DNA of 32,000 bases from Candidatus Nitrospira inopinata (GTDB lineage Bacteria > Nitrospirota > Nitrospiria > Nitrospirales > Nitrospiraceae): NCBI RefSeq assembly GCF_001458695.1, contig NZ_LN885086.1, positions 540,001 through 572,000 on the forward strand, written 5' to 3'. Within the stretch, counting starts at the first letter, position 1, and the number at the start of each line of letters is the position of its first letter. Shown piece by piece: positions 1,432 to 19,998 of the stretch. The notes under the pieces are model-generated. The model was given only the letters and a program-made list of their open reading frames with translations. It searched no databases and was not told the DNA's origin. The translations under genes and the position numbers were made by a program.

Positions 1432-2715
1432 TCAGCGGGCGACGCGCACGGCCCTGACGATCTTGGCGCCCTTGACCTGTTCCAAAAATCGCTCCGTCGG
1501 AACGGACAGATGCATGACCTGCACTTCCTGCCATCCTTCGTTGACCGCCCCTTTGCGGCCGTGCATCTCGTTCACCCACTGGTCAATGTGCTCTTCGGTA
1601 GTGCCTTCGTTGAAATTGACCCAGAAGAGAAACGGCTGGGACATCGCTTGCGCATCGCTCGACGCCGACTGATCATTCGACTGTTGGGCCGTCATGATGG
1701 TTTCCTGCTGCGGCATGGCGCCTTTCGAGACATCGACCTCCGTGGCCTTCAGTCGTTTCATGAGATCCTTGTTCTGCTCGACCAATCCGGCCATTTCTTT
1801 GGACAGCCGCTCATTGGCCACGGTCAAACTGCGGATTTCGGCCTCGAGTTGCTGGTCCATTTGCGTTTGACTGATGAGCAACTCCGCCATCCGCTCGACA
1901 TCACGCCCGCTTTTCTTTTGCCGCTGTTCGATTTCCCGCCTCACCGTCACCATGCCGGATGCGACGGTTTCCTGAGCGGACGACAATCGGGCGATCGCCG
2001 ATTGCAACTCGACCATGCCTCGCTGCTGAGACTGGACGGTGCTCACGGCTTCGGCTTGTACCCTTGCGAGGGTATCGATTCGCTGTTCGAGCTTTGTCGC
2101 TTCGGCCCGCGTGACGGCCAGAGAGGAGCGTTCTCCGTTCATCCAGTCACTGAATCGATCGGCCGCCAACCAAAGAACCACGATCGCCAGCGCGACCTGT
2201 GTCACAATGGCGACGCGGGCTGAAACAGTCGTAGTCTCAAACGGACGGAGGGGCGAGGCTCCGACCATCGCTCTCACGAACCGACGCCATGGATCAGGTG
2301 CGGGATGGTACACGGCGCTCACCGACCCGCCTCGAGCAGTGTTGTGGATAGAGAGCTCGACCGAGTCCCGCCGCAGAGGAACGCGGGCGAACCGAACTCC
2401 CTGCTCAGGCGCCGAAAGTCCTCCAAGGAGGACGCCGTCTTCCGATCGGAGCCCGACGTGATCCACGCGGCCTTGGCAGTGGAACCGAACGACTGCTTCC
2501 GCCTCTTTTCCGCTCAACCATCCGACACGCTGCTCGTTCACAAAGACCTGAATCGGATGGTCCCGCATTTCATCGGATGGGCCGCAGGTTGAACGGAGAG
2601 CCCCTTCCTCCAGCCTCTTGAGCAAGCTCGCCCGATAGTCGTCGAGATCTTGATTCTGTTCCATGGCATCCTCCATGGCCTCCTGACGCACGTTCCTTCC
2701 TTCCCTCCTACGCAT
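1432..2715 (-). CDS. Hypothetical single-pass membrane protein: ~170-aa cytoplasmic N-domain, one TM helix (VAIVTQVALAIVVLWLAA), a long coiled coil and a small C-terminal domain. Likely co-transcribed partner of the upstream sigma-like gene
   Basis: Long ORF starting 12 nt after the stop of the upstream gene on the same strand. Heptad-like Q/E/L/R-rich stretch (LEQRIDTLARVQAEAV...LEAEIRSLTVANERLSKEMAGLVEQNKDLMKRLK). The start is ambiguous: ATG 2715, 2676 or 2664. The last has GGAGG 5 nt upstream. Confidence 0.6.
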   Translation of the reverse strand: MRRREGRNVRQEAMEDAMEQNQDLDDYRASLLKRLEEGALRSTCGPSDEMRDHPIQVFVNEQRVGWLSGKEAEAVVRFHCQGRVDHVGLRSEDGVLLGGLSAPEQGVRFARVPLRRDSVELSIHNTARGGSVSAVYHPAPDPWRRFVRAMVGASPLRPFETTTVSARVAIVTQVALAIVVLWLAADRFSDWMNGERSSLAVTRAEATKLEQRIDTLARVQAEAVSTVQSQQRGMVELQSAIARLSSAQETVASGMVTVRREIEQRQKKSGRDVERMAELLISQTQMDQQLEAEIRSLTVANERLSKEMAGLVEQNKDLMKRLKATEVDVSKGAMPQQETIMTAQQSNDQSASSDAQAMSQPFLFWVNFNEGTTEEHIDQWVNEMHGRKGAVNEGWQEVQVMHLSVPTERFLEQVKGAKIVRAVRVAR

Positions 2716-2727
2716 AAACTTCTCGGC

Positions 2728-3609
2728 TCACGGCCGCACCCGTATGTCCAGCTTCGGCTTTTCGATAGTCAGGGTTTTCGTCCTTCCAAGCCCCCACGCT
2801 ATCTGAATGCAATCGACACACAGTCCCAGATGCCACAGCCGATAGTCGCAGCCGTATCCCTCAGAAAACATGGATTCCCATTCCCTGCGCGAGAGACAGG
2901 GATAGTGATCCGGCTCGCTTTTCCGATAATGGTCTTGAGCTAATCGGATGATTCGCTCGGCCTCGTGGTTCAACTGCTGGCGAGACCGCTCTGCTCTGGC
3001 GATCAGCCCTCCCAACTCATCGTCGGTCATGCCGATTTCTTCCATCGTCCGTCGCCATCCTGATTCCCGCCAGCGGCGGAAGTTTTTGTAAATGCGCTGG
3101 CCTTCCGACTCGGTCAGGCCTGTCACCGAGATAACGTCCCGCGGCCCCATGCCGTAGCAATGGTAGTACAGCGCGATCAGCGCGTCCCGGCTGATCACCG
3201 CCCGCGCCGCAAGCCCGTCAAGAAACCGTCCCAGCACGGTGAGCAGCCCCGTGTGATAGCAAAACGGTTCCGGCCGGCTGTGCTCCTTTGCCACGAACGA
3301 ATCAAGCAAAAACAACGGGCGACAGGGCACCTCGCTGCGTCCATAGACCATGAATCGTTCCAGATATTCCGCGCTCCAGCGGAGCACGAATTTCTCATGG
3401 GCCGTGTCCTCGTTCCACTGGCCGGTTTCCTTGAGAAACCGCCTCGTGTGGTTTCTTGTCCTCTCAAGCAGAATCGGCAGGGCTTGCGAGACAAGCCGAT
3501 CGAACTCCTCCGGAGTTGATACGGCCTCTTCGAGTCGGCCGAAAGCCGCTGTGCGGTCGGACATGGTCTGTTCCCCGCCGTCGATGAACTTTGGGACTAT
3601 GATATTCAT
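2728..3609 (-). CDS. Divergent ECF-sigma-like protein with a C-terminally fused zinc anti-sigma (ZAS, HLxxCxxC) motif
   Basis: GGAGG lies 4 nt upstream of ATG 3609. There is a region-2-like stretch (EEFDRLVSQALPILLERTRNHTRRFL...DTAHEKFVLRWSAEYLERF) and a region-4-like HTH (ALIALYYHCYGMGPRDVISVTGLTESEGQRIYKNFRRWRE). The C-terminal PC-x21-HLGLCVDC occupies codons 2809-2832 and matches the C...HxxxCxxC pattern of RsrA-type anti-sigma domains. The functional call is inference from weak motifs. Confidence 0.5.
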   Translation of the reverse strand: MNIIVPKFIDGGEQTMSDRTAAFGRLEEAVSTPEEFDRLVSQALPILLERTRNHTRRFLKETGQWNEDTAHEKFVLRWSAEYLERFMVYGRSEVPCRPLFLLDSFVAKEHSRPEPFCYHTGLLTVLGRFLDGLAARAVISRDALIALYYHCYGMGPRDVISVTGLTESEGQRIYKNFRRWRESGWRRTMEEIGMTDDELGGLIARAERSRQQLNHEAERIIRLAQDHYRKSEPDHYPCLSRREWESMFSEGYGCDYRLWHLGLCVDCIQIAWGLGRTKTLTIEKPKLDIRVRP

Positions 3610-3771: not shown

Positions 3772-3939
3772 ATGAACCGTTCGAGCGGATTCTTGGCGTT
3801 GGCGGCATTTCTTTCATTCAGCCTGATCGCTCCCTTGTCGTTTGCCGGTGAGGAAGAAAAGAAAGAAGAAAAGAAGGGCGGCCACGTGGTGGTGTTGAGC
3901 GACGACAAGCAGGATGAAAAGAAGGAAGGCGGGAAGTAG
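3772..3939 (+). CDS. Small secreted peptide (55 aa): signal peptide followed by a 29-aa Lys/Glu-rich mature part
   Basis: Below the ORF-track cutoff; translated by hand as MNRSSGFLALAAFLSFSLIAPLSFA|GEEEKKEEKKGGHVVVLSDDKQDEKKEGGK. GGAGGG lies 4 nt upstream of ATG 3772. An in-frame ATG at 3760 is also possible. A strong hairpin terminator follows 15 nt after the stop. Confidence 0.45.
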   Translation: MNRSSGFLALAAFLSFSLIAPLSFAGEEEKKEEKKGGHVVVLSDDKQDEKKEGGK

Positions 3940-3953
3940 GTCTTGGCGGACCG

Positions 3954-3985
3954 GAGAGACGCGGCCGACGGCCGCGTCTCTCTTT
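3954..3985. terminator. Intrinsic terminator hairpin between the convergent small peptide gene and hypE
   Basis: GAGAGACGCGGCC (3954-3966), loop GAC, GGCCGCGTCTCTC (3970-3982): a perfect 13-bp GC-rich stem followed by TTT on the plus strand. There is no T-run in the minus direction, so termination of the hyp operon here is less certain. Confidence 0.6.
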
Positions 3986-4011: not shown

Positions 4012-5067
4012 TCAGCAGATTCTCGGTAACTGTTCACCCGACAACAGGTCCAAGATCCGATTCGTCCCGACCACCGTCCGCAGAATCACCGGCGGTGAAC
4101 GGCGATCCGAGACCGAACCAATCAGAGCCGCCTTTCCAGACACCGCATGCCTTCGCATCACAGCCAGTGCCGGCTCAATCTGTGATGCCGGCACCATCGC
4201 GACAAATCGTCCTTCGTTCGCCACGTACAGAGGATCGAGGCCCAACAGTTCACAGGCCCCACGCACCGGGTCAAGGACGGGGATAGCCATTTCGTCAATC
4301 ACAATGCCGACCCCGGCCGCTTCAGCAATTTCATTCAAGGCGGAGGCCAATCCACCGCGCGTCAGGTCCCGCAGACAATGAATCTCGACACCACTGACAA
4401 TTAGATCTTCCACAACCCCATGCAACGGCGCTGAATCACTCTGCACCTCACCGGCAAACGCCAGTCCCTCCCGCACGCTCAACACGGCCACACCATGGGA
4501 ACCCACGTCGCCACTGATCAGGATCGCGTCTCCAGGCTGAACCATTTGGGGTGAGAGACAAACACCGGGCGGCACCACACCGATCCCAGCCGTATTGATG
4601 AAGATGCCGTCGCCCTTCCCCCGATCGACGACCTTCGTATCTCCGGTGATGATCGACACCCCGGCCGCCCGCGCCGCCTCGGCCATCGACGTCACGACCT
4701 GACGAAGGACATCCAGACTCAGACCCTCCTCCAGAATAAATCCTGCGCTCAGGTACAACGGCTTGGCCCCGCACATGGCGAGATCGTTGACCGTGCCATA
4801 AACCGCAAGCCTGCCGATGTCACCGCCTGGAAAGAACAAGGGACGCACCACATAGGAATCAGTCGTGAAGGCCAGCGTGCCCTTCTCCACCGGCCACGTA
4901 GCGCCATCGTGCAAGAGGGAGAGCAGGGGATTATCAAAGGCATGGACGAACACCTCTTGAATCAGATCACGCATCAGGCGGCCTCCGCCGCCATGGGCCA
5001 ATTGAACGGTTTTTTTTTCGATAGCCGGCAAGGGACAGGATGGTTCAAAAGATGTGTCGTTCATCAT
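4012..5067 (-). CDS. hypE: Hydrogenase maturation protein HypE (carbamoyl dehydratase, AIR-synthase fold)
   Basis: Contains N-terminal LAHGGGG and PurM-like repeats. The diagnostic C-terminal PRIC motif ends the protein (..GEQLPRIC*). Confidence 0.95.
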
Positions 5068-5238
5068 GATCGTCTCTCATTGGACGGGTGAGAGGCCCAC
5101 AATTCTGCCCGTGAGCGACAGTTGCCAGCTCCCGGTTGTCAGCTCATCACAATTCAAGGCTCCTCACCCCGTTTAAAGCTCGTCACCATTTGAAACTGAG
5201 AACGTGGAACTGACACCTTCTTGTCTTCTGCTTGCCGC

Positions 5239-6345
5239 TCACCCGGCGCCGCTTTTCCTGTAGCGATAATAGGCGGAGCAGGCCCCTTCGCTCGACACCA
5301 TCGGCGCGCCCAACGGCCTCTCCGGCGTGCACCTCGTGCCGAAGGCGGGACAGTCTGGTGGTTTGAGCAGACCTTGCAACACCAGGCCGCTCTGACACTC
5401 CGGATGTTCTTGCGCGGCCGGCCCATACTGAGCCAGCACGTCGCGAAACCGCACCGTCGCGTCGAATTCCGCATAGGCCGACTTGATGCGGAGCCCGCTT
5501 CGGGGAATCTCACCGATGCCCCGCCAGATACGTGATGACGGCTCAAATACCTCATCCACAACAGCTTGGGCCTGTCGATTCCCCTCACGGCTCACCGAGC
5601 GCACATATTGGTTCTCAACTTCGGCCCGGCCTTCTTCCAACTGGCCGACCACCATCGCGATCCCCTCCAACACATCCACCGGCTCAAACCCCGTCACGAC
5701 GATGGGCACTCGATATCGCGCCGCAATGGCCTCATAGTCTTCGTAGCCCATGACCGTACACACGTGACCGGCAGCCAGAAACCCCTGAATGCGATTCTGC
5801 GGAGAGGACAGGATCGCCTCCATCGCCGGAGGGACCAGCACATGGGCGACCAGCAGGCTGAAATTGGGAAGGCCCATCGTTTTGGCTTGGACCACCGCCA
5901 TCGCCCACGGGGGCGCGGTGGTCTCGAATCCCACCGCAAAACAGACAACCTGCCGATGAGGATTCACGCGAGCCAGTTCCAGTGCATCCAGCGGCGAATA
6001 GATGATCCGCACATCCGCCCCCTCCGCCTTGGCACCGAAAAGGTCGCCCTGTGAACCAGGCACCCGCAACATGTCGCCAAACGAACAGAGAATCACACCC
6101 GGTTGCCGCGCCAGCCGGACCGCGTCATCGATCAAGCTGACCGGCGTGACACAGACCGGACACCCAGGCCCATGGACAAGCGTGAGGTTCTTGGGCAACA
6201 GTTCGTCCAGGCCGAACCGCACGATCGAATGGGTCTGTCCCCCGCAGACCTCCATGATCGTCCAGGGTCGGCTGACCGTCTTCTTGATCCGCTCCGCGAG
6301 CGCCGTTACCACGGCGCGATCGCGAAATTCATCGACGTATTTCAC
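5239..6345 (-). CDS. hypD: Hydrogenase maturation protein HypD (Fe-S scaffold)
   Basis: Starts MKYVDEFRD. Contains the [14 protein letters not shown] and FETTAP motifs and the C-terminal Cys cluster ([22 protein letters not shown]). Confidence 0.95.
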
Positions 6346-6377
6346 CTGGATTTCACACCCCCTCTTCCTGTAGCAGA

Positions 6378-6635
6378 TTACTGCTCTTCCCCTTCCACTC
6401 TGTCTTTCACTTCCATCGCTGCCAGCTCGGCATAGGCCTCCAACGTCCGCCTGGCCTCTTCTTCATTGAGCCTGCTGATCGCGAAGCCGACGTGCACCAT
6501 CACGTAATCGCCGACGGTGGCATCAGGCACGAGCGCCAATGAGACGGTTTTCGTCACGCCGCCGAATGAGACCGTGGCGGTGCGGAGCGGATCATCGGCG
6601 ATCTGCAAGACCTGTCCGGGAACCGCAAGACACAT
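6378..6635 (-). CDS. hypC: Hydrogenase assembly chaperone HypC
   Basis: Has the canonical N-terminus MCLAVPGQV, with the essential Cys directly after Met. ATG 6635 is preferred over the GTG at 6638 used by the ORF track. AAGGGG lies 7 nt upstream. It begins directly after the hypF stop (6639-6641). Confidence 0.9.
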
Positions 6636-6638
6636 CAC

Positions 6639-9020
6639 TTACCCCTTTCGTTCACGATGCCCATCACGAACCTGACAGGCAGCGACCACCGCCTGCCCCA
6701 CCGACAACCCCCCATCGTTGGGCGGCACCAGTCGATGGCGATAGACCGTCAAATCGGCTTTTTCTAACCCCTGTCGGGCCAAGGACAGCAACAGCCCGTT
6801 CTGAAAGCAGCCGCCGGTCAGGACAACACGAGGGAGCCCCGCTGCTCGTGCAACGTGCACCATGGCATCGACCAATCCGCTATGAAATCGAGCCGCAATC
6901 CGTTCGGGACTCACCCCCTGCTGAAGATCCCGTACCACCTCACTCACCATGGGACGCCAATCAACCATTAGGCGGTTCTCGCCCGCATCGGTCTTTACAA
7001 CTTCGAAAGAATAGGCCCCCGTCTCTCCGCATGCTTGCCCCCGTTCCGCCGCATATTCGACCGCCATCGCCGCCTGGCCCTCAAAGGAAGGATGGTGGCA
7101 CAGACCGGTCAGCGAAGCGATGGCATCGAACAGCCGCCCCATACTCGTCGTCCAGGGTGAGACGACATTGGATGTAAGCAGAGCTGCCAGCCGTTCACGC
7201 TCCATAGCCGTCACCTGCCATGAGGGGAGCCGGCGAGCCGGCATCTGTTCACCCATCAGGTCCCACAACAACGAAGCAGCGGATCGTGTCGGCTCCTTCA
7301 CGGCCGCCTCTCCTCCCGGCAGTCGAAAGGGTCGGAGATGAGCAAACCGCTCAAACCTGTCGAGCGTGACGATCAGGAATTCCCCACCCCACACGACCCC
7401 GTCCGTTCCATACCCCGCTCCATCCCAGGCGATGCCCAAGACCGGACCATCCAGTCCGTGCTCCGCCATGCAGGACACCACGTGGGCATGGTGGTGCTGA
7501 ACGGGAACCACCGGCACGGACAGCCGCGACGCCAGCTCACGGGCGAAGATTGACGAGCGATAATCGGGATGGAGATCACAGGCAATGAGTGTGGGAGTGA
7601 CGTCCAGCAACAGTTGAAGATCCTCGACCACTTGCCGGAAGGCATGGTCCGCCTCCAGGGTTGAGAGATCGCCAAGGTGTTGGCTCATCCACAGGCGATC
7701 CTGTTGGAGCAAGGCCACCGTATTTTTGAGATGCCCGCCAAGGGCAAGCACCGTTTCCTTTGTCCGATTGGCTTCCCCCCTTACACGGATGGGCCGCGGC
7801 GCATAGCCTCTGGCTCGGCGAAGGACCATGGTCGCATCGAGTCCGGCTCTTCTCCCTTCCTCAACACCCACCCGCACCACCGAGTCATCGACCGGTCTTG
7901 CGATCGGCCGATCATGGACCAGGAACGCATCGGCAATCCCGCCCAGTCGTCTCACCGCCTCTCGCTCGTCGGTCACGATCGGCTCCTCCGACCGGTTGCC
8001 ACTGGTCGCCACCATCGGTTGTCGGAGTTCCTGCATGAGCAGATGATGCAAGGGCGTCGTCGGCAAGAGGGCACCTATAAAGGGATTGCCCGGTGACACC
8101 GCCGGTGCCAGCTTACTCTCACACCGCCGTCGGACCAGGACGATCGGCGCCTGCGGCGAGAGGAGCAGTGCCTCCTCGTCCGGTGACAGAAGACAATGGT
8201 CCCGTATCCCCTCCAGCGACGGGAACAGCACGGCGAACGGTTTGTCCGGCCTCTGTTTTCTCACCCGCAGTCGCCGCACCGCCTCATCCGATCCGGCGTC
8301 CACCCACAGTTGAAACCCGCCCAGTCCCTTGATCGCGACGATGCGCCCTTCTCGGAGCAAGGCTCCCGCATGACTCAGCGCTTCTTCACCACGCTGGATC
8401 TCACGGCCTTGCTCGTCCCACAACGCCACCTGGGGTCCACAAGCGGGGCAGGCGATCGGCTCGGCATGAAAACGCCGACTCCCGACAGCGTCGTATTCGG
8501 CTTGGCAAGCGAAGCAGAGTGGAAAATCCTTCATCGTCGTGCGGCGCCGGTCATAGGGCATGTCGGTGAGAAGGCTATAGCGGGGACCACACTGGGTGCA
8601 GGTGATAAACGGATAGCGAAACCGGCGATCGGACGGATCGTTGAGTTCACGCAAGCACTCGGCGCAGACGGCCAAATCCGGCGGGATCACGAGAGCTCGG
8701 TGGCCATCCTCTTCGCTGGCATGAATGGAAAAATTCGTTTGATCACAGGGAGACATCTCTCGATAGGTGAGGGTCTCCACCAAGGCCGAAACAGGAGCGT
8801 CGGTCAGAAGGCGATGCCGAAACTGTTCGATAGAAGCCGCAGGTCCTTCCGTCTCTATCACCAGACCGTTCGTCGTATTGCGGACCCACCCCCCCAGATC
8901 CAACTCGCGGGCCAGACGATAGACAAAGGGACGAAACCCCACCCCCTGCACCGTTCCCTCCACCTCAATCCGAATCCGCCGAACCCGCCGCCTCGTCGCC
9001 TTGTTCCTGGCCACGGTCAT
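6639..9020 (-). CDS. hypF: Carbamoyltransferase HypF
   Basis: Contains an acylphosphatase domain (IEVEGTVQGVGFRPFVYRLA), two CxxC...CxxC zinc fingers (CAECLREL..CTQCGPRYS; CFACQAEY..CPACGP), then YrdC-like and Kae1-like domains. ATGA overlap with the hypA stop at 9017-9020. Confidence 0.95.
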   Translation of the reverse strand: MTVARNKATRRRVRRIRIEVEGTVQGVGFRPFVYRLARELDLGGWVRNTTNGLVIETEGPAASIEQFRHRLLTDAPVSALVETLTYREMSPCDQTNFSIHASEEDGHRALVIPPDLAVCAECLRELNDPSDRRFRYPFITCTQCGPRYSLLTDMPYDRRRTTMKDFPLCFACQAEYDAVGSRRFHAEPIACPACGPQVALWDEQGREIQRGEEALSHAGALLREGRIVAIKGLGGFQLWVDAGSDEAVRRLRVRKQRPDKPFAVLFPSLEGIRDHCLLSPDEEALLLSPQAPIVLVRRRCESKLAPAVSPGNPFIGALLPTTPLHHLLMQELRQPMVATSGNRSEEPIVTDEREAVRRLGGIADAFLVHDRPIARPVDDSVVRVGVEEGRRAGLDATMVLRRARGYAPRPIRVRGEANRTKETVLALGGHLKNTVALLQQDRLWMSQHLGDLSTLEADHAFRQVVEDLQLLLDVTPTLIACDLHPDYRSSIFARELASRLSVPVVPVQHHHAHVVSCMAEHGLDGPVLGIAWDGAGYGTDGVVWGGEFLIVTLDRFERFAHLRPFRLPGGEAAVKEPTRSAASLLWDLMGEQMPARRLPSWQVTAMERERLAALLTSNVVSPWTTSMGRLFDAIASLTGLCHHPSFEGQAAMAVEYAAERGQACGETGAYSFEVVKTDAGENRLMVDWRPMVSEVVRDLQQGVSPERIAARFHSGLVDAMVHVARAAGLPRVVLTGGCFQNGLLLSLARQGLEKADLTVYRHRLVPPNDGGLSVGQAVVAACQVRDGHRERKG

Positions 9021-9367
9021 TCCTCAACCACGACCTCGTGCACCACCACCTCCGGAGCCTCCTGCCCCTGGAGCATTGTTCCACCGCAGCGGGGGCAGAG
9101 GGCCGCCCCTTCAAGGGTTCCATCCCAGCGGCAACGAGGGCACCAGCCCTTTCCATCAAATGGCCTTATTTCTACCGTCGCCCCCTCAAGCCTCGTGCCT
9201 CGTGCCGCCAATTCAAACGATGTCTGAATGGTGGAGGGCTCATGTTCCATCATATGGGAACCGAGACGCACCTTGAGCCGCACCGTCAAGGGCTTGGCTC
9301 CAGGGCTACTCGCCAACCCTGCTTCCACGGCCTTCACGACCTGTTTCATGAGGTGGAGCTCGTGCAC
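9017..9367 (-). CDS. hypA: Hydrogenase nickel-insertion protein HypA
   Basis: A GTG start at 9367 gives the canonical MHELHLMKQVV N-terminus, with GAGGAA 5 nt upstream. Zinc site CPRC-x12-CPRC. The 144-aa ORF-track version (to 9451) would add an Arg/Gly-rich extension overlapping the protease gene. Confidence 0.85.
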   Translation of the reverse strand: MHELHLMKQVVKAVEAGLASSPGAKPLTVRLKVRLGSHMMEHEPSTIQTSFELAARGTRLEGATVEIRPFDGKGWCPRCRWDGTLEGAALCPRCGGTMLQGQEAPEVVVHEVVVEE

Positions 9368-9891
9368 TGAGATTCCTCGACTTCTTGTGTGATCCGCGCA
9401 ACTACGTGCCCCACCGCCTCTTCGACCGGTTGCGACAGGGATGGTCCCCATCCTGTCTCGGCCACTTCGATCCCATAGATGATCACCCTCTCGGGCAGCC
9501 GCCCCAAGGTCCTGCCCAACTCAATCGTCTCCGCCACGCCAACACCATGGGTCGATCGACAGGTCAGGTTCCGCGCAATCGGGCCGGTCGAGGCATCCAA
9601 GCGATGGATTGTCCCTGGAGGCTTCCCGCTGGACACCGCGTCGATGAGCAGAACAACCAGCGCGCCGTCCATCAGATCGAGCAGGTCTGTTCCCGCCTGT
9701 TGAGCCTCGATGACCTGAGCCCCTTTGCCGATCTTCTCGCGGAGCCGACGCGCCGCCACAAGGCCTGCGGCATCGTCGCCGCGCCACTCGTTGCCGAGGC
9801 CGATGATGCGTACGCTCGTTCTGTCTGACAGTCGGCAGGAACGCCCGACGTCGTGCGGCATGGCATCATTGCGAAGAGCTTCGGTCATCAT
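9346..9891 (-). CDS. [NiFe]-hydrogenase large-subunit C-terminal endopeptidase (HoxW/HycI family)
   Basis: Core motif VRIIGLGNEWRGDDAAG...DAV...G..H, directly downstream of the large subunit. ATG 9891 (MMTEAL..) has GAGG 8 nt upstream and lies 13 nt after the large-subunit stop. The ORF-track TTG at 9927 and the ATG giving MPHDVG.. are alternative starts. Confidence 0.8.
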   Translation of the reverse strand: MMTEALRNDAMPHDVGRSCRLSDRTSVRIIGLGNEWRGDDAAGLVAARRLREKIGKGAQVIEAQQAGTDLLDLMDGALVVLLIDAVSSGKPPGTIHRLDASTGPIARNLTCRSTHGVGVAETIELGRTLGRLPERVIIYGIEVAETGWGPSLSQPVEEAVGHVVARITQEVEESQCTSSTS

Positions 9892-9904
9892 CCGGCCCGC
9901 CTCA

Positions 9905-11227
9905 TCAGAGATCACGCTGAAGCTCAAGCTTCAAGAAGTGGGTCGCGCAGGAGATACAGGGATCATAGCAACGGATTACCTTCTCGCAGGCCAGAGCGAT
10001 CGCGTCATCCGATTCAGTCAACAGACGAGGGAGGAACAGCCGCAGGTCCTCTTCGATTCTCCCTTGGTTTTGCGACGTGGGGGGAACGATCTTAGCCTCA
10101 CGGATTACACCGTGCTGATCGATTCGATAGCGGTGGCAGAGAATCCCGCGTGGCGCCTCGGTGCAGGCCATCCCCACGCCGGCCTTCACCGTGACCGGCA
10201 ACGAGGAAACTGGCGGTGGCTCATACAAATCGATCAGCCGTAGGGCCTCCTCCAGCGCGTAGAGCATCTCCACGGAACGGGCGACAATTCCTTGAAAGGG
10301 ATTGCGAAGCGGCAACGACAGCCCGACGTCCGCCCATACCTCCATTACCGCTGGAGGCAACCGATCACAATTGAGATTCACGCGGGCCAGGGGGCCGACC
10401 TGATAGGGAGCGCCGTGCAGCCTGCAATGGAGCGCGGTGGAATAGGGCGCCTGCTGTTCTTCACAATGCCGCTCGAACTCGTCGGCGGTAATATCAAGGC
10501 CGTGGGACGAGACGATCCGTCCCTCATTAAACGGATATTCGCGGTCATGACGCAGCGCAACGAAGGTGTAGTCGGGAACAAAATCCGGATACGAAAACGA
10601 GGCGACCCACCGGATCGTGTCGATCGCCGCGTCGCGGGCCCACAACAGCTCGTCTCTGAGCCCTTCCAATTCACGTCGGCTCGGAACACGAGAAAACCCG
10701 CCGACCTTCACCGACACAGGGTGCACGGAGCGGCCGCCCAACAGCGTCATGAGGGCGTTGCCCGCCTTCTTGATCCGCAAGCCCCTCGTCACGGCGGCCG
10801 CGTGATCTTTCGCCATTGCGATGCCGCTCTCATAACCCAGAAAATCCGGCGCGTGTAAAAGATACACGTGCAAGGCGTGGCTTTCGATCCATTCGCCGCA
10901 ATAGAGGAGCCGCCGGAGATCCCGCAGCGGCCCTTCGACGCGCAGGCCGAAGATCCGCTCGATCGCGTGGACGGCGCTCATTTGGTAGGCGACCGGACAG
11001 ATCCCACAGATTCTGGCGACAATGTCCGGCACTTCCTCATAATGCCGGCCTTGCAAAAAGGCCTCGAAGAACCGAGGCGGCTCAAAGATCTTGAGTTCGA
11101 CATCGTGCACGGCACCCTGTTTCACCGTGACCCGGAGCGCTCCTTCCCCTTCGACGCGGGCAATCGTGCCGATGGCGATCGTTCTGGTGCTGTTCGCCGG
11201 CTGGGAAACAGGGCTCTCTTCGCTCAT
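9905..11227 (-). CDS. hyhL: [NiFe]-hydrogenase large (alpha) subunit, cytoplasmic group 3b (sulfhydrogenase/NAD(P)-coupled) type
   Basis: N-terminal Ni-binding motif [11 protein letters not shown] and C-terminal DPCISCATH, followed by a 10-aa extension ([10 protein letters not shown]) that would be removed by the endopeptidase. The short ~440-aa length is typical of group 3. ATGA overlap with the small subunit at 11224-11227. Confidence 0.93.
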
Positions 11228-12066
11228 GACCCCTCACTGTTCGTATGTTCAACCGCCCAGGCTTCGCTCTCGCGTCGGAACGATGCCGCAGCGCCGTTGA
11301 TACCACGAAATCGTCGCACGACTTCGATCGGGATCAGCCCAAGCCGGTCGTGGAACTGTTTGGCCAACGACGAGGTATTGGGCGGGTGACCGGCTCCCTT
11401 CACCATCCCCTCCGCCGGGCCGAAGCAACCGTAACAGTCTCGCCCCATGCTCGGACAGATCGCGCCGCACCCGCCGCTGGTCACCGGTCCCAAACAAGGC
11501 ATCCCCTTGGCCACCACCACGCACACGTTTCCTCGCCGTTTGCACTCGAGACAGACACTGTCCGTCGGGATGCGAGGCCGGACTCCCGCCAACAGATCGG
11601 TGATGACGCGCCGCAACTGGTCTTTATCAATCGGGCAGCCCCTCAGCTCGTAATCGACCTTCACATGATCGGCAATCGGCGTGCTGGTGGCGAGCGTCCG
11701 AACGAAGTCCGGCCTGGGATAAACAACCTGTTTGTACGATTCAATGTCGGCCCAGTTGCGCAGGGCCTGAATGCCCCCAGCCGTGGCGCAGGCGCCGATC
11801 GTCATCAAAACCTTGGCCTGCTCCCGCACGGCCTTGATTCGCTCCCTATCCTCTTCAGTCGTGATCGACCCCTCGACCAGGGCGATGTCGTAGGGACCTG
11901 GGTCCATGCGGCTTGACGCCTCCGGAAAGTAGGCGATATCCAGCGCCTCCCCCAAGAGGAGCAATTCGTCTTCGAGGTTCAAGATGCTTAATTGGCAACC
12001 GTCGCAGGAGGCAAACTTAAAAACCCCCAATTTTGGCTTTTGCTGTCCTTTCATCAGAAGCGCCAT
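11224..12066 (-). CDS. hyhS: [NiFe]-hydrogenase small (delta) subunit, group 3 type, no Tat signal
   Basis: Contains the NuoB-like proximal cluster motif [10 protein letters not shown], further Cys clusters (GACATAGG; [11 protein letters not shown]; [19 protein letters not shown]) and no twin-arginine leader. Confidence 0.9.
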
Positions 12067-12075
12067 CGTCCTGCC

Positions 12076-12909
12076 TCAGACCCCCGGTCGCCCCAACCAC
12101 GATTCGATCCGATCGTATCGCATCACCGGTCCATCCTTGCACACAAAATAGGGCCCCATCTGACAGTGGCCGCAGAGACCGATTCCACATTCCATATGCC
12201 GCTCAAGCGACACATACACGGACGTCGCGGGCAAGCCCCGACGAAGCAGAATCGGCACGCCCACCCGCATCATGATCTCCGGTCCGCACATCAACACGAC
12301 GGTCTGGACAGGATCTAACGACACCATCTCGAACAGCTCCGTCACCACGCCCACGTGGTAGCGCCAGAGTTTCCCTGGCCGGTCGCTCGTCAACAACACC
12401 TCCGTGTCGGGCTGTCGCCCCCACCGTTCGAACCGTTCATGAAAGACCAGATCTTCCGGCGTCTTGACTCCATGGAGGATCTTGACGGCTCCGTACTGAT
12501 TGCGCCTACGGAAAATGTATTCGATGGCGCCCACCACCGGCGCACACCCAAGGCCGCCGGTCACGATGACAAGGTCATGCCCCCGCGCTTCGTCAAGCGG
12601 CCAGCCCCTCCCAAACGGACCGCGAATCCCCAAGACATCGCCGGCCTGCAACCGTGCAACGGCATTCGTCACCCGACCCACGGCCCTGATCGTGTGGTCC
12701 AGATACTCCGGCTCATCCGGGTCCGACACGATGGAAATCGCCACTTCGCCGACCCCGAACAGAGAGACCATGTTGAACTGCCCGGCGGCGAATCGATATT
12801 GCCGCCGCTCGGCTTCATCGTTGATCCGGATCCGATAGGTGTGGATGTCGGCCGTTTCCCGCATCTTCTCCACAATCGTCGCCGCATGAATCAGGTGGGG
12901 ATTGATCAT
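12076..12909 (-). CDS. hyhG: Hydrogenase gamma subunit: PyrK/ferredoxin-NADP-reductase-like FAD/NAD(P)-binding protein with a C-terminal 2Fe-2S site
   Basis: Contains the FAD-binding R-x-Y-S-like stretch (HTIRAVGRVTNA), the NAD(P) site LVIVTGGLGCAP and the C-terminal CGIGLCGHCQ. The start is set at ATG 12909 (MINPHL..), which forms an ATGA overlap with the beta-subunit stop. The ORF-track start at 13026 would overlap hyhB by 120 nt. Confidence 0.88.
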   Translation of the reverse strand: MINPHLIHAATIVEKMRETADIHTYRIRINDEAERRQYRFAAGQFNMVSLFGVGEVAISIVSDPDEPEYLDHTIRAVGRVTNAVARLQAGDVLGIRGPFGRGWPLDEARGHDLVIVTGGLGCAPVVGAIEYIFRRRNQYGAVKILHGVKTPEDLVFHERFERWGRQPDTEVLLTSDRPGKLWRYHVGVVTELFEMVSLDPVQTVVLMCGPEIMMRVGVPILLRRGLPATSVYVSLERHMECGIGLCGHCQMGPYFVCKDGPVMRYDRIESWLGRPGV

Positions 12910-14042
12910 GGGTTGTCGGACCTCCGTGCCGCCGATCGTCCATCGGACGCCAGCAAGGCGGAGAGTTCTTCTCTCACATCGATCCCCACCGGACACCAGG
13001 TGATGCAGCGGCCGCAGCCGACACAACCGGACATGCCAAATTGGTCATGCCAGGCCGCGAACTTGTGGGTGAGCCACATCCGGTACCGGTCCTTGATCAT
13101 CGGACGGATGTTCTTGCCGTGGATATAGCCATGCTCGTGGGTAAAGCAGGAATCCCACAGTCTGGTCCGCTCCGTGTGCTGCCCATCGAGAGTCGGTGCA
13201 TCCTCGATCGTGTGGCAAAAGCAGGTGGGGCAGACCATCGTGCAGTTGGTACAGGCAAGACAACGGGCCGCGACATCATCCCACCGTGGATGGTCATAGG
13301 CGTCGTAGAGCGCCTGTGGCAAGGCTGCCTGCTCTTGAAGGCGCCCTTGGCTTTCGGCGCAGGCGCCAATTCGCTTCGACGCCTCGGCCAACAGAGTTTC
13401 GGAAGCCGGCGACACTGGCAATTCCGTCAGAACCGCCTTGCCGGCTTCGCTGCCCGCTTCGATCAACAGGACGTCATCCAGTTCCGTCAGAGCAAGATCA
13501 AATCCGTTTTGGGCACGCGGTCCCGTCTTCATGGACGAGCAGAAACAGGTCGGAAGGACCCTCGTGCAATTGACCGCAATGACGAAGAGTCCTTCACGCC
13601 GACTGGCGTAAGGGGAGTCCCGATAGGGTCCTCTCAAAAAGATCTGATCTTGGATAGCCAGCCCGGCCACATCACAGGGCCGAGCGCCCAAGAGAGCGAT
13701 CTTTTCCGGCTTGGGAAGCCGAGGATAAATCGACAATCCGCCGTTCGTACGTTCAATCTGAAGCAACGGCTCGCGCGGGGCAAAAGCGAAGGGTTTCAGC
13801 GACTGGGGCCCATGGACGATTCCGAAGATCTCGCCCGTACCGGTCTGCTCCAACCGATACCGCCCCGGTTCCTGGTGGTCTCGCCAACCGATCGGCAGAT
13901 CAGAAACTCGTGCGATGGTGTCCCACACCACCGCTCCGTCACGCAGGGTGGGGCCGACGACGCGGTGCCCTTGGGCACCCAGAAGATCGAGCAAACGTTT
14001 GAGATCGGCCGACGGAAAGGCGCCGTGGTCGCTTGAGGACAT
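12906..14042 (-). CDS. hyhB: Hydrogenase beta subunit: AsrA-like 4Fe-4S dicluster electron-transfer protein
   Basis: Two ferredoxin-type motifs, CLACTNCTMVCPTCFC and CVGCGRCITWCPVG, plus additional Cys clusters. It is the first gene of the beta-gamma-delta-alpha order typical of Pyrococcus-type sulfhydrogenase operons. GGAG lies 9 nt upstream of ATG 14042. Confidence 0.88.
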   Translation of the reverse strand: MSSSDHGAFPSADLKRLLDLLGAQGHRVVGPTLRDGAVVWDTIARVSDLPIGWRDHQEPGRYRLEQTGTGEIFGIVHGPQSLKPFAFAPREPLLQIERTNGGLSIYPRLPKPEKIALLGARPCDVAGLAIQDQIFLRGPYRDSPYASRREGLFVIAVNCTRVLPTCFCSSMKTGPRAQNGFDLALTELDDVLLIEAGSEAGKAVLTELPVSPASETLLAEASKRIGACAESQGRLQEQAALPQALYDAYDHPRWDDVAARCLACTNCTMVCPTCFCHTIEDAPTLDGQHTERTRLWDSCFTHEHGYIHGKNIRPMIKDRYRMWLTHKFAAWHDQFGMSGCVGCGRCITWCPVGIDVREELSALLASDGRSAARRSDNP

Positions 14043-14108: not shown

Positions 14109-14124
14109 TGCAAGAGCCGACCCA
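14109..14124 (-). promoter_or_regulatory. Candidate sigma54 (-24/-12) promoter for the hydrogenase operon
   Basis: The minus strand reads TGGGTCGGCTCTTGCA, against the consensus TGGCACG-N4-TTGCW. The GG and GC doublets are at exact consensus spacing and only 2 core mismatches occur. It lies about 65 nt upstream of the hyhB ATG. This is a single-site match by eye, not scored. Confidence 0.3.
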
Positions 14125-14313: not shown

Positions 14314-14598
14314 TCACCACTGGTCGTGGTAAAAGAGAAAATACCCGATCGCCACCACAATCGCTTGCAGCAGAATCAACCATCGCATGATGCCCCAGGG
14401 TGTCGTCGGCTGGGTGTCCTTCATGCGAAGGCCCGGCGTGAGGAGGATGTAGGTGGCGATCAGCTCCCGCGCGTCTTCCCGCGGAAGATTGGCTTCTTTT
14501 TGAAGGAGGGCGATCGCTTCCTGACGTTCTCCGCGCAACAGAGCATCGATGACGTTTTCGGGTAAATCGGGTCGTTGTTGCAATTGGGCGGACTTCAT
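14314..14598 (-). CDS. Small membrane protein with an N-terminal L7/L12-C-terminal-like helical motif and a C-terminal TM helix
   Basis: DLPENVIDALLRGERQEAIALLQKEANLPREDARELIATY followed by the TM helix WLILLQAIVVAIGYFLFY. It is a paralogue of the ORF at 29727-30023, with the same architecture and colinear motifs. Confidence 0.6.
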   Translation of the reverse strand: MKSAQLQQRPDLPENVIDALLRGERQEAIALLQKEANLPREDARELIATYILLTPGLRMKDTQPTTPWGIMRWLILLQAIVVAIGYFLFYHDQW

Positions 14599-14654: not shown

Positions 14655-15503
14655 TTAAGAATGACGGGACTTCGCCCCAAGGAACCGAGGCCGATCCCGC
14701 ACCGAGACCATCTTGACCAGATCCCGAACCGACAGCACGCCGACGATCTTGCCGTTCTCCCTCACGGCCAGGTGGCGCACGCCCCGCTCGGCCATCACGC
14801 GGCTGGCATCACGGATCGTCCGGTTGACGTCGATGCTCAGAAGCGGCGAGCTCATCATCGAGCTGACACGAATTGTTCCTCCATCCCGATTCGAGGCCGC
14901 CCCCTTCCGAATCAAATCGCTCTCGGTGACGATCCCGACCAGCTCTCCCGCCTCGACCGTCAACAAGGAGCCGATGCGTTTGTCTCGCATCTGCCGAGCC
15001 GCTTCAAGCACGGACGCCTCGCTCCCGATCGTCGCCAGGTCGGTGGCCATCAGGACGCTGAGCGGTCGATAGACGCGATCCAGTTCGCTTACGGGACCGC
15101 CCTCCGTGTCCACGAATGATCGGACCAGATCCCGCACGGAGATCAAGCCGGCGACTTCTCCTCCCTCCACCACGCAGAGGTGGCGAATGTGATTGGTCTC
15201 CATCATATGACTGGCGTCCAACATGGTGCGATCGCTCGCGATCGTGATGATGGGGCTATTCATCACCTGATCCACCATCGTGACCGTGGGATCCGTCCCC
15301 GCGGCGATCACCTTCCGCACCACGTCCGTTTCCGTCACGATTCCGATCGGTCCTCGACCCGGCTCGCCGGACTCGACCAAGACGCAACCGACGCGCCGGA
15401 CTCCCATCCGTTCCGCCGCGAACGACACGGTCGTGTCCCGCGGAACGACCTCCAAATAGCGACGCATGAAATCCTTAATGAGTCCGCCTTCCTGTCCACT
15501 CAT
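14655..15503 (-). CDS. Stand-alone protein with four CBS domains (two Bateman modules)
   Basis: Four repeats ending GIVTETDVVRK, GLISVRDLVRS, GIVTESDLIRK and GVLSVRDLVKM. The start is set at ATG 15503 (MSGQEGG..), which has AGGAG 5 nt upstream. The ORF-track ATG 15590 has no SD. Confidence 0.85.
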   Translation of the reverse strand: MSGQEGGLIKDFMRRYLEVVPRDTTVSFAAERMGVRRVGCVLVESGEPGRGPIGIVTETDVVRKVIAAGTDPTVTMVDQVMNSPIITIASDRTMLDASHMMETNHIRHLCVVEGGEVAGLISVRDLVRSFVDTEGGPVSELDRVYRPLSVLMATDLATIGSEASVLEAARQMRDKRIGSLLTVEAGELVGIVTESDLIRKGAASNRDGGTIRVSSMMSSPLLSIDVNRTIRDASRVMAERGVRHLAVRENGKIVGVLSVRDLVKMVSVRDRPRFLGAKSRHS

Positions 15504-15805
15504 CTCCACTCCTCGCTCCCGTTGAATGGCCTCCTCCCGGCGCAAGCCGGGAACGCCTCGGCCTTCTTGCGCCTCGGCCCATTTGCCCATTTTGATGGGC
15601 CGTCACTATACCTGATTATGATGAAACTCGCACCTGAGCCCATCGGGCTATAGCCGGGCCATAGCCAAAAAATCGGCTTCTCGACGAGAAGGCAACGCGG
15701 CGATACGACGCACGTTGCGACCGCGATCGTCCTCCATCGTCCGCTCCGCAGCCGAACCGCCTTTCGGTTGAATCAACGCGGAGTGTTGGTTACTCTCTAG
15801 CGGCA

Positions 15806-18800: not shown

Positions 18801-19363
18801 ACCTGCTCGGCGGAGGGCTTGGCGGCGAGGTCACGGGCACGGGCGGCAAGGCCTTTCGCGTGGACCTCCGGATGGAAGCAGCGGGACTGGACACGAATCA
18901 CCTGCTGCCGGCGGGCGAGCAGATCCCCGGCGACAGTCTGATCGATGCCACCGTGACTGGAACCCTCGCCTTCGACGACCAACAGGGCCGCCTCGATTTT
19001 GGCAAGAGCGTATTGGACCTATCGCTCACCAGAATCGGGCGTCACACATTGGACCGATTGCTCCGGTTTCTCGACCCGACCGGCGGCAACCCGTCGATCA
19101 TCGGCGCCCGTTCCGCAGTGAAGCTGGCGAATCCAGCTTCCGTCCGCATCACGATGTCCAAGGGGCTGGTCGCCATCCGCATACGATTTCAGGAGGGACT
19201 GCTCTCCCGTTTTGAGATGGACCGAATTCCAGCGGGCCAGATGAAACAGATCCGCGACCTCACGGCGACCATCCCACAATGGAACGATCTTCGTCGTCTC
19301 ATGGCCCTGTTGGGAGCAGAGCGATATGGAGTGGATCAAGCAGGCGGGTTTGTTTTAGAGTGA
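15806..19363 (+). CDS. AsmA-superfamily, YdbH-like intermembrane (inner-to-outer membrane) bridge protein
   Basis: N-terminal membrane anchor MKPLKILAVACVALLIILAGTVAAI followed by ~1150 aa of repetitive beta-rich sequence. The C-terminal part (..VHNLAMNLLGGGLGGEV..NHLLPAG..SVRITMSKGLVAIRIRFQ) resembles the YdbH C-terminal region as I remember it. A DUF1318/YdbL-like gene follows 4 nt downstream, as in the E. coli ydbH-ynbE-ydbL operon. Confidence 0.7.
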   Translation: MKPLKILAVACVALLIILAGTVAAIRFFFPADQIRKQLERTLSEHLQGTVRIAALEWELLHGIRLGNIEIERNGVPLARFDRLSLRYRLLPLLHGTVAVDELALIQADVFVDLALFPAPSQAEPPPRRDEPVVLPTLPLSVNIESIRIEHSHVTMVGHDDLRLTLRDVTLTSRLHAGPKTADLSGTLDIADIEAFVNQHRWRLPLHLAFTLSVDFPMERLVLERVEIRCDPVISLAATGRVDHLVSTPTVTFSVQESQLDLEGLVSLAQPFLPPPLAGARLAGTISPSLTIAGSQTDRGFDGAIRLDINGRDIRGSAPSFGLSLESTSFQVRTGEIPVHANRPGPIHADLSVNMTGITAGAASVRDLAFGLQADRSEAGRLAAHVTMKGLVSAALEPAGPRLSEPLTLDVETSGDETALSFSLTRVEATVGDLVSLVANGTVGPLGEAGKQAQEQRPFSLRAAVRSDAGKLFRALPPSLRQGFGLTAHGAPQTASLNVTGSLDADWRPLRAEATLSLDAADLHAVHVVSAEQRLEGTLDRLTLALRTAYHAKSESLKGTVDGLIRLSHLRQGTTATVGTVSVTLNGDINGRVGSDFAVRRLTASNRLTSEIRDVRYETPTMTGTFNHLTASAKAHGDLIDGPYVLNEARLTVGQLLDGRVSGTFNPRTQRFAFDIAVPSLNVAEIQHHMTGPAVESLAAVKPSGQLSMRIGGSGTIPTPDDVAQLTIPVQASAQVALQHVGGSFQGHGITGATGTISLSVEPPEQQSTKRQVITTSWKLKTDRLDLGGDAPVKHLENLALALDGSIESFDRLTLERFVLSADGLDASIDTELSGIKRFLNRKEGAPWLEGLGPLFVKSNLQATLDLDRFADAVRSFGVAGSGRAGLALVLNKKERGPLDVRVTVLPHRLSIAQREQHVEDLDGAIELRKVLQWMSPSDKQAREAEFRPTGLLPDLHLTAPARRDIRIRLVKAGPIEVRNLSGHLFLDQNRLVVHNLAMNLLGGGLGGEVTGTGGKAFRVDLRMEAAGLDTNHLLPAGEQIPGDSLIDATVTGTLAFDDQQGRLDFGKSVLDLSLTRIGRHTLDRLLRFLDPTGGNPSIIGARSAVKLANPASVRITMSKGLVAIRIRFQEGLLSRFEMDRIPAGQMKQIRDLTATIPQWNDLRRLMALLGAERYGVDQAGGFVLE

Positions 19364-19985: not shown

Positions 19986-19998
19986 TCTGAGATGGTCT

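What the first reader, a model, noticed from the sequence alone, without database searches (positions are those of the whole stretch)
4012..14042. Compact cytoplasmic group-3b-type [NiFe]-hydrogenase operon with its own maturation set, but no hypB
Seen: ten minus-strand genes in the order beta, gamma, small, large, endopeptidase, hypA, hypF, hypC, hypD, hypE. There are three ATGA overlaps (12906-12909, 11224-11227, 9017-9020) and a 22-nt overlap between the endopeptidase and hypA. The small subunit lacks a Tat leader. The large subunit has RICGIC...DPCISCATH plus a 10-aa cleavable tail. Established: the beta-gamma-delta-alpha order with an AsrA-like and a PyrK-like subunit defines the Pyrococcus sulfhydrogenase-type, NAD(P)-linked group 3b enzymes, which are also reported in comammox-type Nitrospira. 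HypA normally works with the GTPase HypB for Ni insertion. I saw no ORF with a HypB-type P-loop or His-rich N-terminus anywhere in the window.
Basis: partly seen in the sequence, partly recalled or inferred. Interest (0 to 1): 0.5.

Follow-up and report, generated by a model that had tools for sequence, protein, structure and literature searches.

The report
Known Nitrospira hydrogenase operon lacking hypB
This is the already published cytoplasmic NAD(P)-type (group 3b) nickel-iron hydrogenase operon of the complete nitrifier Candidatus Nitrospira inopinata; its lack of the nickel GTPase gene hypB is real, but it is typical of this widespread operon type and has been noted before in related organisms.

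Summary
Ten intact minus-strand genes lie at 14042-4012: hydB, hydG, hydD, hydA, endopeptidase, hypA, hypF, hypC, hypD, hypE. The three ATGA overlaps and the 22-nt overlap are there.

The window is Ca. Nitrospira inopinata (large subunit 100% identical). All four structural subunits match Pyrococcus furiosus sulfhydrogenase I best among solved structures. This agrees with the published group 3b assignment.

No HypB, UreG, SlyD or any P-loop NTPase is encoded in the window or within about 10 kb on either side. hypA's stop overlaps hypF's start, so there is no room for a lost hypB.

In 80 related loci from many phyla, 23 of the 25 with hypF directly after the protease also lack hypB. All ten genes are under purifying selection.

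The 4+6 operon was described for Nitrospina gracilis in 2013. The hypB absence in this arrangement was discussed for Nitrosococcus oceani AFC132 in 2020, with UreG proposed as a substitute. Comammox gene tables list no hypB.

I could not scan the whole N. inopinata genome.

Verdict: correct reading, already known, low interest. The one open point is how nickel is inserted without a linked HypB.

The parts
12906..14042 (-). hydB, beta subunit (378 aa): AsrA-like Fe-S protein with two CxxCxxCxxxCP motifs plus extra cysteines
   Evidence: Pfam Fer4_22 1.6e-34; best NCBIfam sulfhyd_HydB; best PDB match 9nez_B, sulfhydrogenase 1 beta, 148 bits
12076..12909 (-). hydG, gamma subunit (277 aa): FAD- and NAD(P)-binding, with a C-terminal 2Fe-2S site (CGIGLCGHCQ...C); its start overlaps the hydB stop (ATGA)
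   Evidence: Pfam FAD_binding_6, NAD_binding_1, DHODB_Fe-S_bind; 9nez_C 162 bits; ATGA verified
11224..12066 (-). hydD, delta/small subunit (280 aa), no Tat signal
   Evidence: Pfam Oxidored_q6; best NCBIfam sulfhyd_ShyD/HydD; 9e15_A/9nez_A 157 bits; N-terminus read
9905..11227 (-). hydA, alpha/large [NiFe] subunit (440 aa): RICGIC and DPCISCATH motifs, 10-aa C-terminal extension
   Evidence: 100% identical to the NCBI Ni/Fe hydrogenase subunit alpha of Ca. N. inopinata; 5yxy_A 250 bits, 9nez_D 247 bits
9346..9891 (-). Hydrogenase maturation endopeptidase (181 aa from ATG 9891; an upstream TTG at 9927 is possible)
   Evidence: Pfam HycI; TIGR00072 120 bits; start options
9017..9367 (-). hypA (116 aa, GTG start): N-terminal MHE nickel motif and CPRC...CPRC zinc site; 22-nt overlap with the protease gene, ATGA overlap with hypF
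   Evidence: Pfam HypA 1-112 of 116 residues; identical to the 116-aa GenBank HypA; alignment
6639..9020 (-). hypF carbamoyltransferase (793 aa), all domains present
   Evidence: TIGR00143 787 bits; Pfam Acylphosphatase, zf-HYPF x2, Sua5_yciO_yrdC, HypF_C, HypF_C_2
6378..6635 (-). hypC (85 aa), starts MCLAVPG (essential Cys2)
   Evidence: Pfam HupF_HypC 3.6e-29; start
5239..6345 (-). hypD (368 aa), with [13 protein letters not shown] and FETT motifs
   Evidence: TIGR00075 508 bits; sequence
4012..5067 (-). hypE (351 aa), LAHGGGG near the N-terminus, C-terminal PRIC
   Evidence: TIGR02124 452 bits, residues 21-351; sequence
3954..3982 (-). 13-bp perfect G+C-rich hairpin just after the hypE stop, between hypE and a convergent small + strand ORF; probable end of the transcription unit (no U-tract)
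   Evidence: strand folding -37.5 kcal/mol, z = -3.9, 0 of 200 shuffles as stable

Best explanation
Shown: the region is the single [NiFe] hydrogenase locus of Ca. Nitrospira inopinata. It is a compact ten-gene unit that encodes a soluble heterotetrameric group 3b (sulfhydrogenase-type) enzyme, its C-terminal endopeptidase, and HypA, HypF, HypC, HypD and HypE.

Inferred from the characterised homologues: H2 is split or formed at the NiFe(CN)2CO site in HydA. Electrons pass through the Fe-S clusters of HydD and HydB to the 2Fe-2S cluster and FAD of HydG, and then to NAD(P)+. The reaction is reversible. HypF and HypE make the cyanide ligands. HypC and HypD assemble and deliver Fe(CN)2CO. HypA, through its Met-His-Glu site, delivers nickel. 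The protease then removes the 10-residue tail.

Shown: no HypB, UreG, SlyD or other P-loop protein is encoded in the operon or within about 10 kb of either end of the window. The same hypB-less layout is conserved across Nitrospira and in many other phyla.

Inferred: nickel insertion in this module does not depend on a co-encoded HypB. HypA most likely acts alone when nickel is sufficient, or draws on an unlinked G3E GTPase. N. inopinata has UreG but no UreE.

This is the published locus and a known operon type, not a new system.
For: Identity and classification:
- 100% identity of HydA and HypA to N. inopinata proteins on the 3,295,117-bp contig.
- Family assignments for all ten genes.
- Best solved relatives for all four subunits are P. 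furiosus SHI and T. kodakarensis Hyh.

Absence of hypB:
- No HypB, UreG, SlyD or Walker A motif in the window or flanks, with positive controls elsewhere.
- No PF02492 gene within 10 kb beyond either end of the window.
- The same order without hypB in other Nitrospira loci.
- Of 25 loci from many phyla with hypF directly after the protease, 23 have no hypB in the locus.

Functional state:
- dN/dS of 0.09-0.37 for all ten genes against the closest relative.

Literature:
- N. gracilis has four subunits plus six accessory genes in one operon, classified type 3b (PMC3578206).
- hypB absence in this arrangement, with a UreG proposal (PMC7285500).
- N. inopinata has UreABCDFG and one group 3b hydrogenase (PMC7522533).
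- hypB mutants are rescued by high nickel (PMC12134894).
- 3b genes are transcribed in comammox MAGs from wastewater plants (PMC7078480).
Against: - The whole N. inopinata genome could not be scanned, so an unlinked hypB is not excluded. Rhodothermus marinus has this arrangement together with a distant hypB.
- No activity data for any Nitrospira 3b enzyme were found. A 2023 paper states that its function is uncharacterised.
- The NCBIfam sulfhydrogenase equivalog cut-offs are not reached (281 bits against 700). The enzyme is therefore a group 3b relative, not an orthologue of the Pyrococcus enzymes, and substrate and cofactor preference cannot be transferred.
Confidence: 0.8

Rival explanations
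1. A canonical hypB exists elsewhere in the N. inopinata chromosome, and maturation follows the standard HypA/HypB GTPase pathway. The operon merely lacks linkage.
For: hyp genes are often dispersed. Rhodothermus marinus carries this arrangement with a distant hypB. Many 3b loci in the survey carry no hyp genes at all, so they must use unlinked ones. I could not scan the genome.
Against: - This is the only hydrogenase reported in the genome, so an orphan hypB would be odd.
- Gene tables for comammox MAGs list hypA, hypC, hypD, hypE, hypF and the protease, but no hypB.
- The N. oceani paper reports genome-wide absence in most organisms with this arrangement.
- In my survey hypB was only ever found next to a hypA.
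Confidence: 0.2
2. The urease GTPase UreG, or another G3E/COG0523 GTPase, supplies nickel to HypA. This would be the reverse of the Helicobacter cross-talk, in which HypA/HypB feed urease.
For: N. inopinata has ureABCDFG but no ureE. The same idea was proposed for N. oceani AFC132. HypA-urease cross-talk has been proposed for Nitrospira.
Against: There is no direct evidence. Several organisms with the hypB-less module were not checked for urease. In many of them HypA has lost its zinc domain, or is absent altogether, which argues for a simpler route that needs little or no chaperone.
Confidence: 0.25
3. The operon is a decaying or silent remnant, and the missing hypB reflects loss of function.
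For: No physiological H2 metabolism has been demonstrated for comammox Nitrospira.
Against: - All ten ORFs are intact and keep their catalytic and ligand motifs.
- dN/dS is 0.09-0.37.
- The operon is conserved over 57-90% protein identity across many lineages.
- It is transcribed in situ in related MAGs.
Confidence: 0.03

Closest known systems
Pyrococcus furiosus sulfhydrogenase I (hydBGDA; PDB 9nez, 9e15) and Thermococcus kodakarensis Hyh (5yxy)
   Same: Same beta-gamma-delta-alpha gene order and the same four subunit types. These are the best solved relatives of every subunit. The enzyme is cytoplasmic, has RxCGxC and DPCxxCxxH motifs, and its C-terminal tail is removed by a protease.
   Different: The scores fall well below the NCBIfam equivalog cut-offs, so the relationship is distant. 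In Thermococcales, nickel insertion uses HypA together with an ATP-type (Mrp/MinD) HypB. No such gene is linked here. NAD versus NADP preference and sulfur reduction are untested.
Nitrospina gracilis 3/211 group 3b operon (Lucker et al. 2013, PMC3578206)
   Same: A single operon with four structural and six accessory genes, cytoplasmic, classified type 3b. Nitrospina and Nitrospinota loci in my survey have the same order and no hypB (L060, L071).
   Different: Their HypA is an ~87-aa form that lacks the whole zinc-finger insert. The N. inopinata HypA is full length, with both CxxC pairs.
Nitrosococcus oceani AFC132-type 3b cluster (PMC7285500)
   Same: A group 3b enzyme with hypAFCDE and no hypB. 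The absence is discussed explicitly, with UreG proposed as a substitute.
   Different: A gammaproteobacterial host. The paper describes the hyp genes and structural genes in a different relative orientation. It does not treat comammox Nitrospira.
Group 3b loci of other comammox and canonical Nitrospira
   Same: 75-90% identical HydA, identical gene order, 117-aa HypA, and a hypA/hypF overlap.
   Different: In several relatives, toxin-antitoxin or mobile genes separate hypC from hypD-hypE. One has pntAB inserted between hydB and hydG. The N. inopinata copy is uninterrupted.

Membership tests
Group 3b [NiFe] hydrogenase (bidirectional NAD(P)-linked / sulfhydrogenase type) | Large subunit with N-terminal RxCGxC and C-terminal DPCxxCxxH nickel-iron ligand motifs | tested here: met
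   RICGIC at residues 72-77 and DPCISCATH at 422-430; both are invariant in 10 relatives
Group 3b [NiFe] hydrogenase (bidirectional NAD(P)-linked / sulfhydrogenase type) | Four subunits: alpha, delta (small), an AsrA-like Fe-S beta, and an FAD/NAD(P)/2Fe-2S gamma, encoded in the order beta-gamma-delta-alpha | tested here: met
   Pfam and NCBIfam assignments; each subunit's best PDB hit is the matching chain of 9nez
Group 3b [NiFe] hydrogenase (bidirectional NAD(P)-linked / sulfhydrogenase type) | Large subunit closer to characterised 3b enzymes than to groups 3a, 3c and 3d | tested here: met
   247-250 bits to 3b structures, against 173 (MvhA), 151 (HoxH) and 136 (Frh). No formal phylogeny or HydDB run was possible. 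The literature classifies it as 3b.
Group 3b [NiFe] hydrogenase (bidirectional NAD(P)-linked / sulfhydrogenase type) | Cytoplasmic location (no Tat signal on the small subunit) | tested here: met
   The N-terminus [18 protein letters not shown] has no RRxF motif
Group 3b [NiFe] hydrogenase (bidirectional NAD(P)-linked / sulfhydrogenase type) | Reversible H2:NAD(P)+ oxidoreductase activity, with or without sulfur/polysulfide reduction | not testable with these tools
   No biochemical data found for any Nitrospira enzyme
Orthologue (NCBIfam equivalog) of Pyrococcus SHI or SHII subunits | Score above the curated equivalog cut-off | tested here: not met
   Alpha 281.6 against 700; beta 158.9 against 750; gamma 170.6 against 600; delta 178.3 against 460
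Complete canonical Hyp maturation set (HypABCDEF plus endopeptidase) | HypA, C, D, E, F and the protease present with their functional motifs | tested here: met
   Motifs: HypA MHE plus 4 Cys; HypC Cys2; Hyp[18 protein letters not shown]; HypE PRIC
Complete canonical Hyp maturation set (HypABCDEF plus endopeptidase) | HypB nickel GTPase (or archaeal ATP-type HypB) encoded with the set | tested here: not met
   No Walker A motif in any real ORF. No phmmer or HMM hit in the window or in about 10 kb on either side.
Complete canonical Hyp maturation set (HypABCDEF plus endopeptidase) | HypB encoded anywhere in the genome | not testable with these tools
   The N. inopinata chromosome was not retrievable.

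The most novel reading that the evidence does not exclude
The hypB-less 'protease-hypA-hypF-hypC-hypD-hypE' module attached to group 3b hydrogenases marks a HypB-independent route of nickel insertion that is widespread in bacteria. Across phyla it shows a reduction series: full-length HypA without HypB (Nitrospira, including this window); an ~87-aa HypA that keeps the Met-His-Glu nickel site but has lost the entire zinc-finger domain; and no HypA at all. If N. inopinata truly has no hypB anywhere, its only hydrogenase matures with HypA alone or with UreG. It would then be a culturable model for that route.
Probability: 0.35. Interest if true: 0.45.

Novelty: already known. Interest (0 to 1): 0.2.

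Why it matters
The physiological role of the 3b hydrogenase in complete nitrifiers is still open: H2 as an extra electron donor, redox balancing, or sulfur reduction. How an aerobe matures it without HypB (and without a HypX in this window) is a small unanswered question in nickel trafficking. This window adds no new object. It is the published N. inopinata locus, and hypB-less versions of this operon have been described. The practical value is a clean, fully motif-checked gene model, plus the comparative context showing that the missing hypB is a conserved design feature rather than an assembly error.

Tried and rejected
- **Whole-genome search for hypB in N. inopinata: not possible.** Protein searches cannot be restricted by organism.
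- **Reaching a Nitrospira HypB through HypA homologues:** every HypA homologue examined came from the same hypB-less 3b operon, so no Nitrospira HypB was obtained. I ran no further search on it.
- **A sigma-54 promoter upstream of hydB:** there is one 2-mismatch match at 14110-14124. However, matches in the window are no more frequent than in shuffles. A regex scan of the upstream regions of relatives also found nothing, but that regex was mis-spaced by one base and did not recover the window's own 14110-14124 site, so conservation was not really tested. No claim is made.
- **The sigma-70/terminator scan** gave nothing above the shuffle expectation.
- **The two ORFs without Pfam hits downstream of hypE (2728-3609, 1432-2715) as hidden maturation factors:** they have no P-loop, and they are separated from hypE by a strong hairpin and a convergent small ORF. 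I rejected them as part of the operon.
- **Rfam and tRNA scans** of the window found nothing.
- **Literature search for a zinc-less HypA:** nothing relevant found.
- **Daims et al. 2015** is not held in the library.
Full report
**Source and identity.** The large-subunit ORF at 9905-11227 (minus strand) is 100% identical over its full length to the NCBI protein 'Ni/Fe hydrogenase subunit alpha [Candidatus Nitrospira inopinata]'. That protein is carried on a contig of 3,295,117 bp, which is the published genome size of that organism (PMC7522533). The 116-aa HypA from GTG 9367 is likewise identical to the GenBank HypA. The window's G+C content is about 0.58-0.64, consistent with the published 59%.

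**Check of the observation.** The ORF listing and my own coordinate check give ten consecutive minus-strand genes. Pfam and NCBIfam identify them without ambiguity:
- hydB 14042-12906
- hydG 12909-12076
- hydD 12066-11224
- hydA 11227-9905
- protease 9891-9346
- hypA 9367-9017
- hypF 9020-6639
- hypC 6635-6378
- hypD 6345-5239
- hypE 5067-4012

ATGA start/stop overlaps are present at exactly the three places named. The protease/hypA overlap is 22 nt. The remaining gaps are 9, 13, 3, 32 and 171 nt.

Further points from the sequence:
- The small subunit has no twin-arginine leader.
- The large subunit has RICGIC and DPCISCATH, followed by ten residues.
- HypA begins (f)Met-His-Glu and has CPRC...CPRC.
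- HypC begins MCLAVPG.
- HypD has [13 protein letters not shown] and FETT.
- HypE ends PRIC.
- A 13-bp perfect G+C hairpin (3954-3982; z = -3.9) follows hypE and faces a convergent small ORF. The unit therefore probably ends there.

**Is hypB really missing?** Four tests agree.
- In six frames, the only G-x4-GK[ST] matches lie inside the 1185-aa AsmA-like protein or in ORFs interrupted by stops. No His-rich stretch was found.
- The other plausible genes of the window carry unrelated Pfam domains or none: transporter, MscS, CBS, AsmA/YhdP-like, DUF1318, a 2614-aa PD40-TPR-CHAT protein, SH3, M48 peptidase and an esterase.
- phmmer with E. coli and H. pylori HypB against all stop-to-stop ORFs of 50 aa or more gave no hit in the window. 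It also gave none in the loci that extend about 10 kb beyond each end of the window. The same queries scored 218-278 bits on HypB genes in six unrelated loci, which validates them. An HMM built from those six found nothing more. UreG and SlyD queries were also negative, even at E = 10.
- The hypA stop overlaps the hypF start. This junction is the same in independent assemblies and in other Nitrospira. A misassembly that removed hypB is therefore excluded.

**Classification.**
- Against all PDB sequences, each subunit's best match is the corresponding chain of P. furiosus sulfhydrogenase I: alpha 247 bits, beta 148, gamma 162, delta 157. For alpha, T. kodakarensis Hyh scores 250.
- The next large-subunit groups score 173 (MvhA, 3c), 151 (HoxH, 3d) and 136 (Frh, 3a).
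- The best NCBIfam models are the sulfhydrogenase ones, but far below their equivalog cut-offs. I therefore file the enzyme as a group 3b member, not as an orthologue of the Pyrococcus enzymes.
- The literature independently assigns comammox hydrogenases, and N. inopinata's single hydrogenase, to group 3b (PMC6311188; PMC10284858; PMC7522533).

**Comparative context.** The top 120 protein relatives are 75-100% identical, and every one that carries a source name is from Nitrospira. Four Nitrospira loci examined on long contigs have the same order with a 117-aa HypA and no PF02492 gene within 10 kb. In three of the four, toxin-antitoxin or mobile genes separate hypC from hypD-hypE; the fourth, L009, is uninterrupted like this window.

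A scan of species-representative genomes returned 80 loci from many phyla (57-90% identity). Almost all have hydB-hydG-hydD-hydA-protease. Twenty-five have hypF directly after the protease. They break down as follows:

| Loci | HypA | HypB in locus | Lineages / loci |
|---|---|---|---|
| 9 | Full length | No | Nitrospira/Nitrospirales |
| 8 | ~87 aa; keeps MHE but lacks the whole zinc-finger insert | No | Nitrospina, Enhydrobacter, Desulfobacca, a gammaproteobacterium and others |
| 6 | None between protease and hypF | No | Bryobacterales, Ignavibacteria and others |
| 2 | hypA-hypB pair elsewhere in the locus | Yes | L038, L080 |

HypB was only ever seen next to a hypA; where the CxxC pairs were checked (five of the six loci) that hypA was full length, with both. 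The hypB-less layout is thus a conserved design.

All ten genes are under purifying selection against the closest relative (dN/dS 0.09-0.37). The protease and HypA evolve fastest.

**What was already published.**
- Lucker et al. 2013 described, for Nitrospina gracilis, one operon with four subunits and six accessory proteins, classified type 3b.
- The N. oceani AFC132 paper states that not all genomes with this arrangement carry hypB. It lists N. gracilis, Marinobacter, Sorangium and Luminiphilus among them, notes rescue of hypB mutants by nickel, and proposes UreG as a substitute.
- Gene tables for comammox MAGs list the protease, hypA, hypC, hypD, hypE and hypF, but no hypB. The text nevertheless calls the maturation set complete.
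- N. inopinata has ureABCDFG and no ureE.
- A 2025 review confirms that hypB mutants are phenotypically complemented by high nickel, and that HypA is the partner that docks on the large subunit.

**Mechanism.**
- Shown: gene content, motifs, conservation and absence of a linked HypB.
- Inferred from the homologous enzymes: the electron path NiFe site, then delta and beta Fe-S clusters, then gamma 2Fe-2S/FAD, then NAD(P). Also inferred: CN synthesis by HypF/HypE, Fe(CN)2CO assembly on HypC/HypD, nickel delivery by HypA, and tail removal by the protease.
- The nickel step without HypB is the only unusual element. I think it most likely that HypA works without a dedicated GTPase, alone at adequate nickel or with UreG. 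An unlinked hypB remains possible (about 0.2), because I could not search the whole chromosome.

**Verdict.** The object is a published locus of a known operon type, and the hypB absence has precedent in print. Interest is low. The residual question is how nickel gets in, together with the zinc-less HypA forms seen in other phyla.

Noticed in passing
L029, L032, L042, L043, L054, L060, L071, L074, L077, L083 (e.g. L060:11843-12109, L071:4992-5261): In many non-Nitrospira bacteria the same hypB-less 3b module encodes an ~87-aa HypA. It keeps the N-terminal Met-His-Glu nickel motif, but the entire zinc-finger insert (both CxxC pairs, about 27 alignment columns) is deleted. Pfam HypA matches only profile positions 1-65. 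I found no mention of such a form in the literature searched.
   Followed up: partly
L046, L048, L061, L085, L031, L072: In these loci (Bryobacterales, Ignavibacteria and others) the protease gene abuts hypF with no hypA between them and no hypB in the locus. The module is protease-hypF-hypC-hypD-hypE only.
   Followed up: partly
This hints at a functional link between this hydrogenase and NADH/NADPH balance.
   Followed up: no
window 9349-9367 and 4975-5067: One public assembly (GCA_001458755.1) calls hypA from ATG 9349 (110 aa), which cuts off the Met-His-Glu nickel motif. It calls hypE as 320 aa, which cuts off the conserved LAHGGGG segment. The GTG 9367 start (116 aa, as in GenBank and in other Nitrospira) and the 351-aa hypE fit the family profiles.
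   Followed up: yes
L007:14990-21317, L008:14919-17088, L010:13161-19580 and L013, L017: In other Nitrospira the operon is split between hypC and hypD-hypE by toxin-antitoxin, HNH, transposase and other small mobile genes. The N. inopinata copy is uninterrupted.
   Followed up: no
window 19960-27804 (+), with 27827-28351 and 28348-29322: A 2614-aa protein with N-terminal PD40/Tricorn-like repeats, long TPR arrays and a C-terminal CHAT (caspase-like) domain. It is followed by an SH3-domain protein and an M48 peptidase.
   Followed up: no
window 15806-19363 and 19368-19985 (+): An AsmA/YhdP-like 1185-aa protein followed by a DUF1318 protein. From memory this resembles the E. coli ydbH/ydbL pairing.
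   Followed up: no
window 3772-3939 (+), 2728-3609 (-), 1432-2715 (-): A 55-aa Lys/Glu-rich ORF with a signal-peptide-like N-terminus, convergent with hypE. Also two conserved ORFs (293 aa and about 410-427 aa) with no Pfam match; the longer one has a hydrophobic segment and a long region that looks like a coiled coil.
   Followed up: partly
window 4012-14042 and flanks: No HypX homologue (the aerobic CO-ligand synthesis factor) appeared in the family scans of this aerobe's only hydrogenase locus. It was not searched for specifically.
   Followed up: no
window 14655-15590 (-) and 14314-14598 (-): Directly upstream of the operon, on the same strand, lie a protein with four CBS domains and a 94-aa ORF without a Pfam hit. 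This neighbourhood is not conserved in other Nitrospira loci.
   Followed up: no
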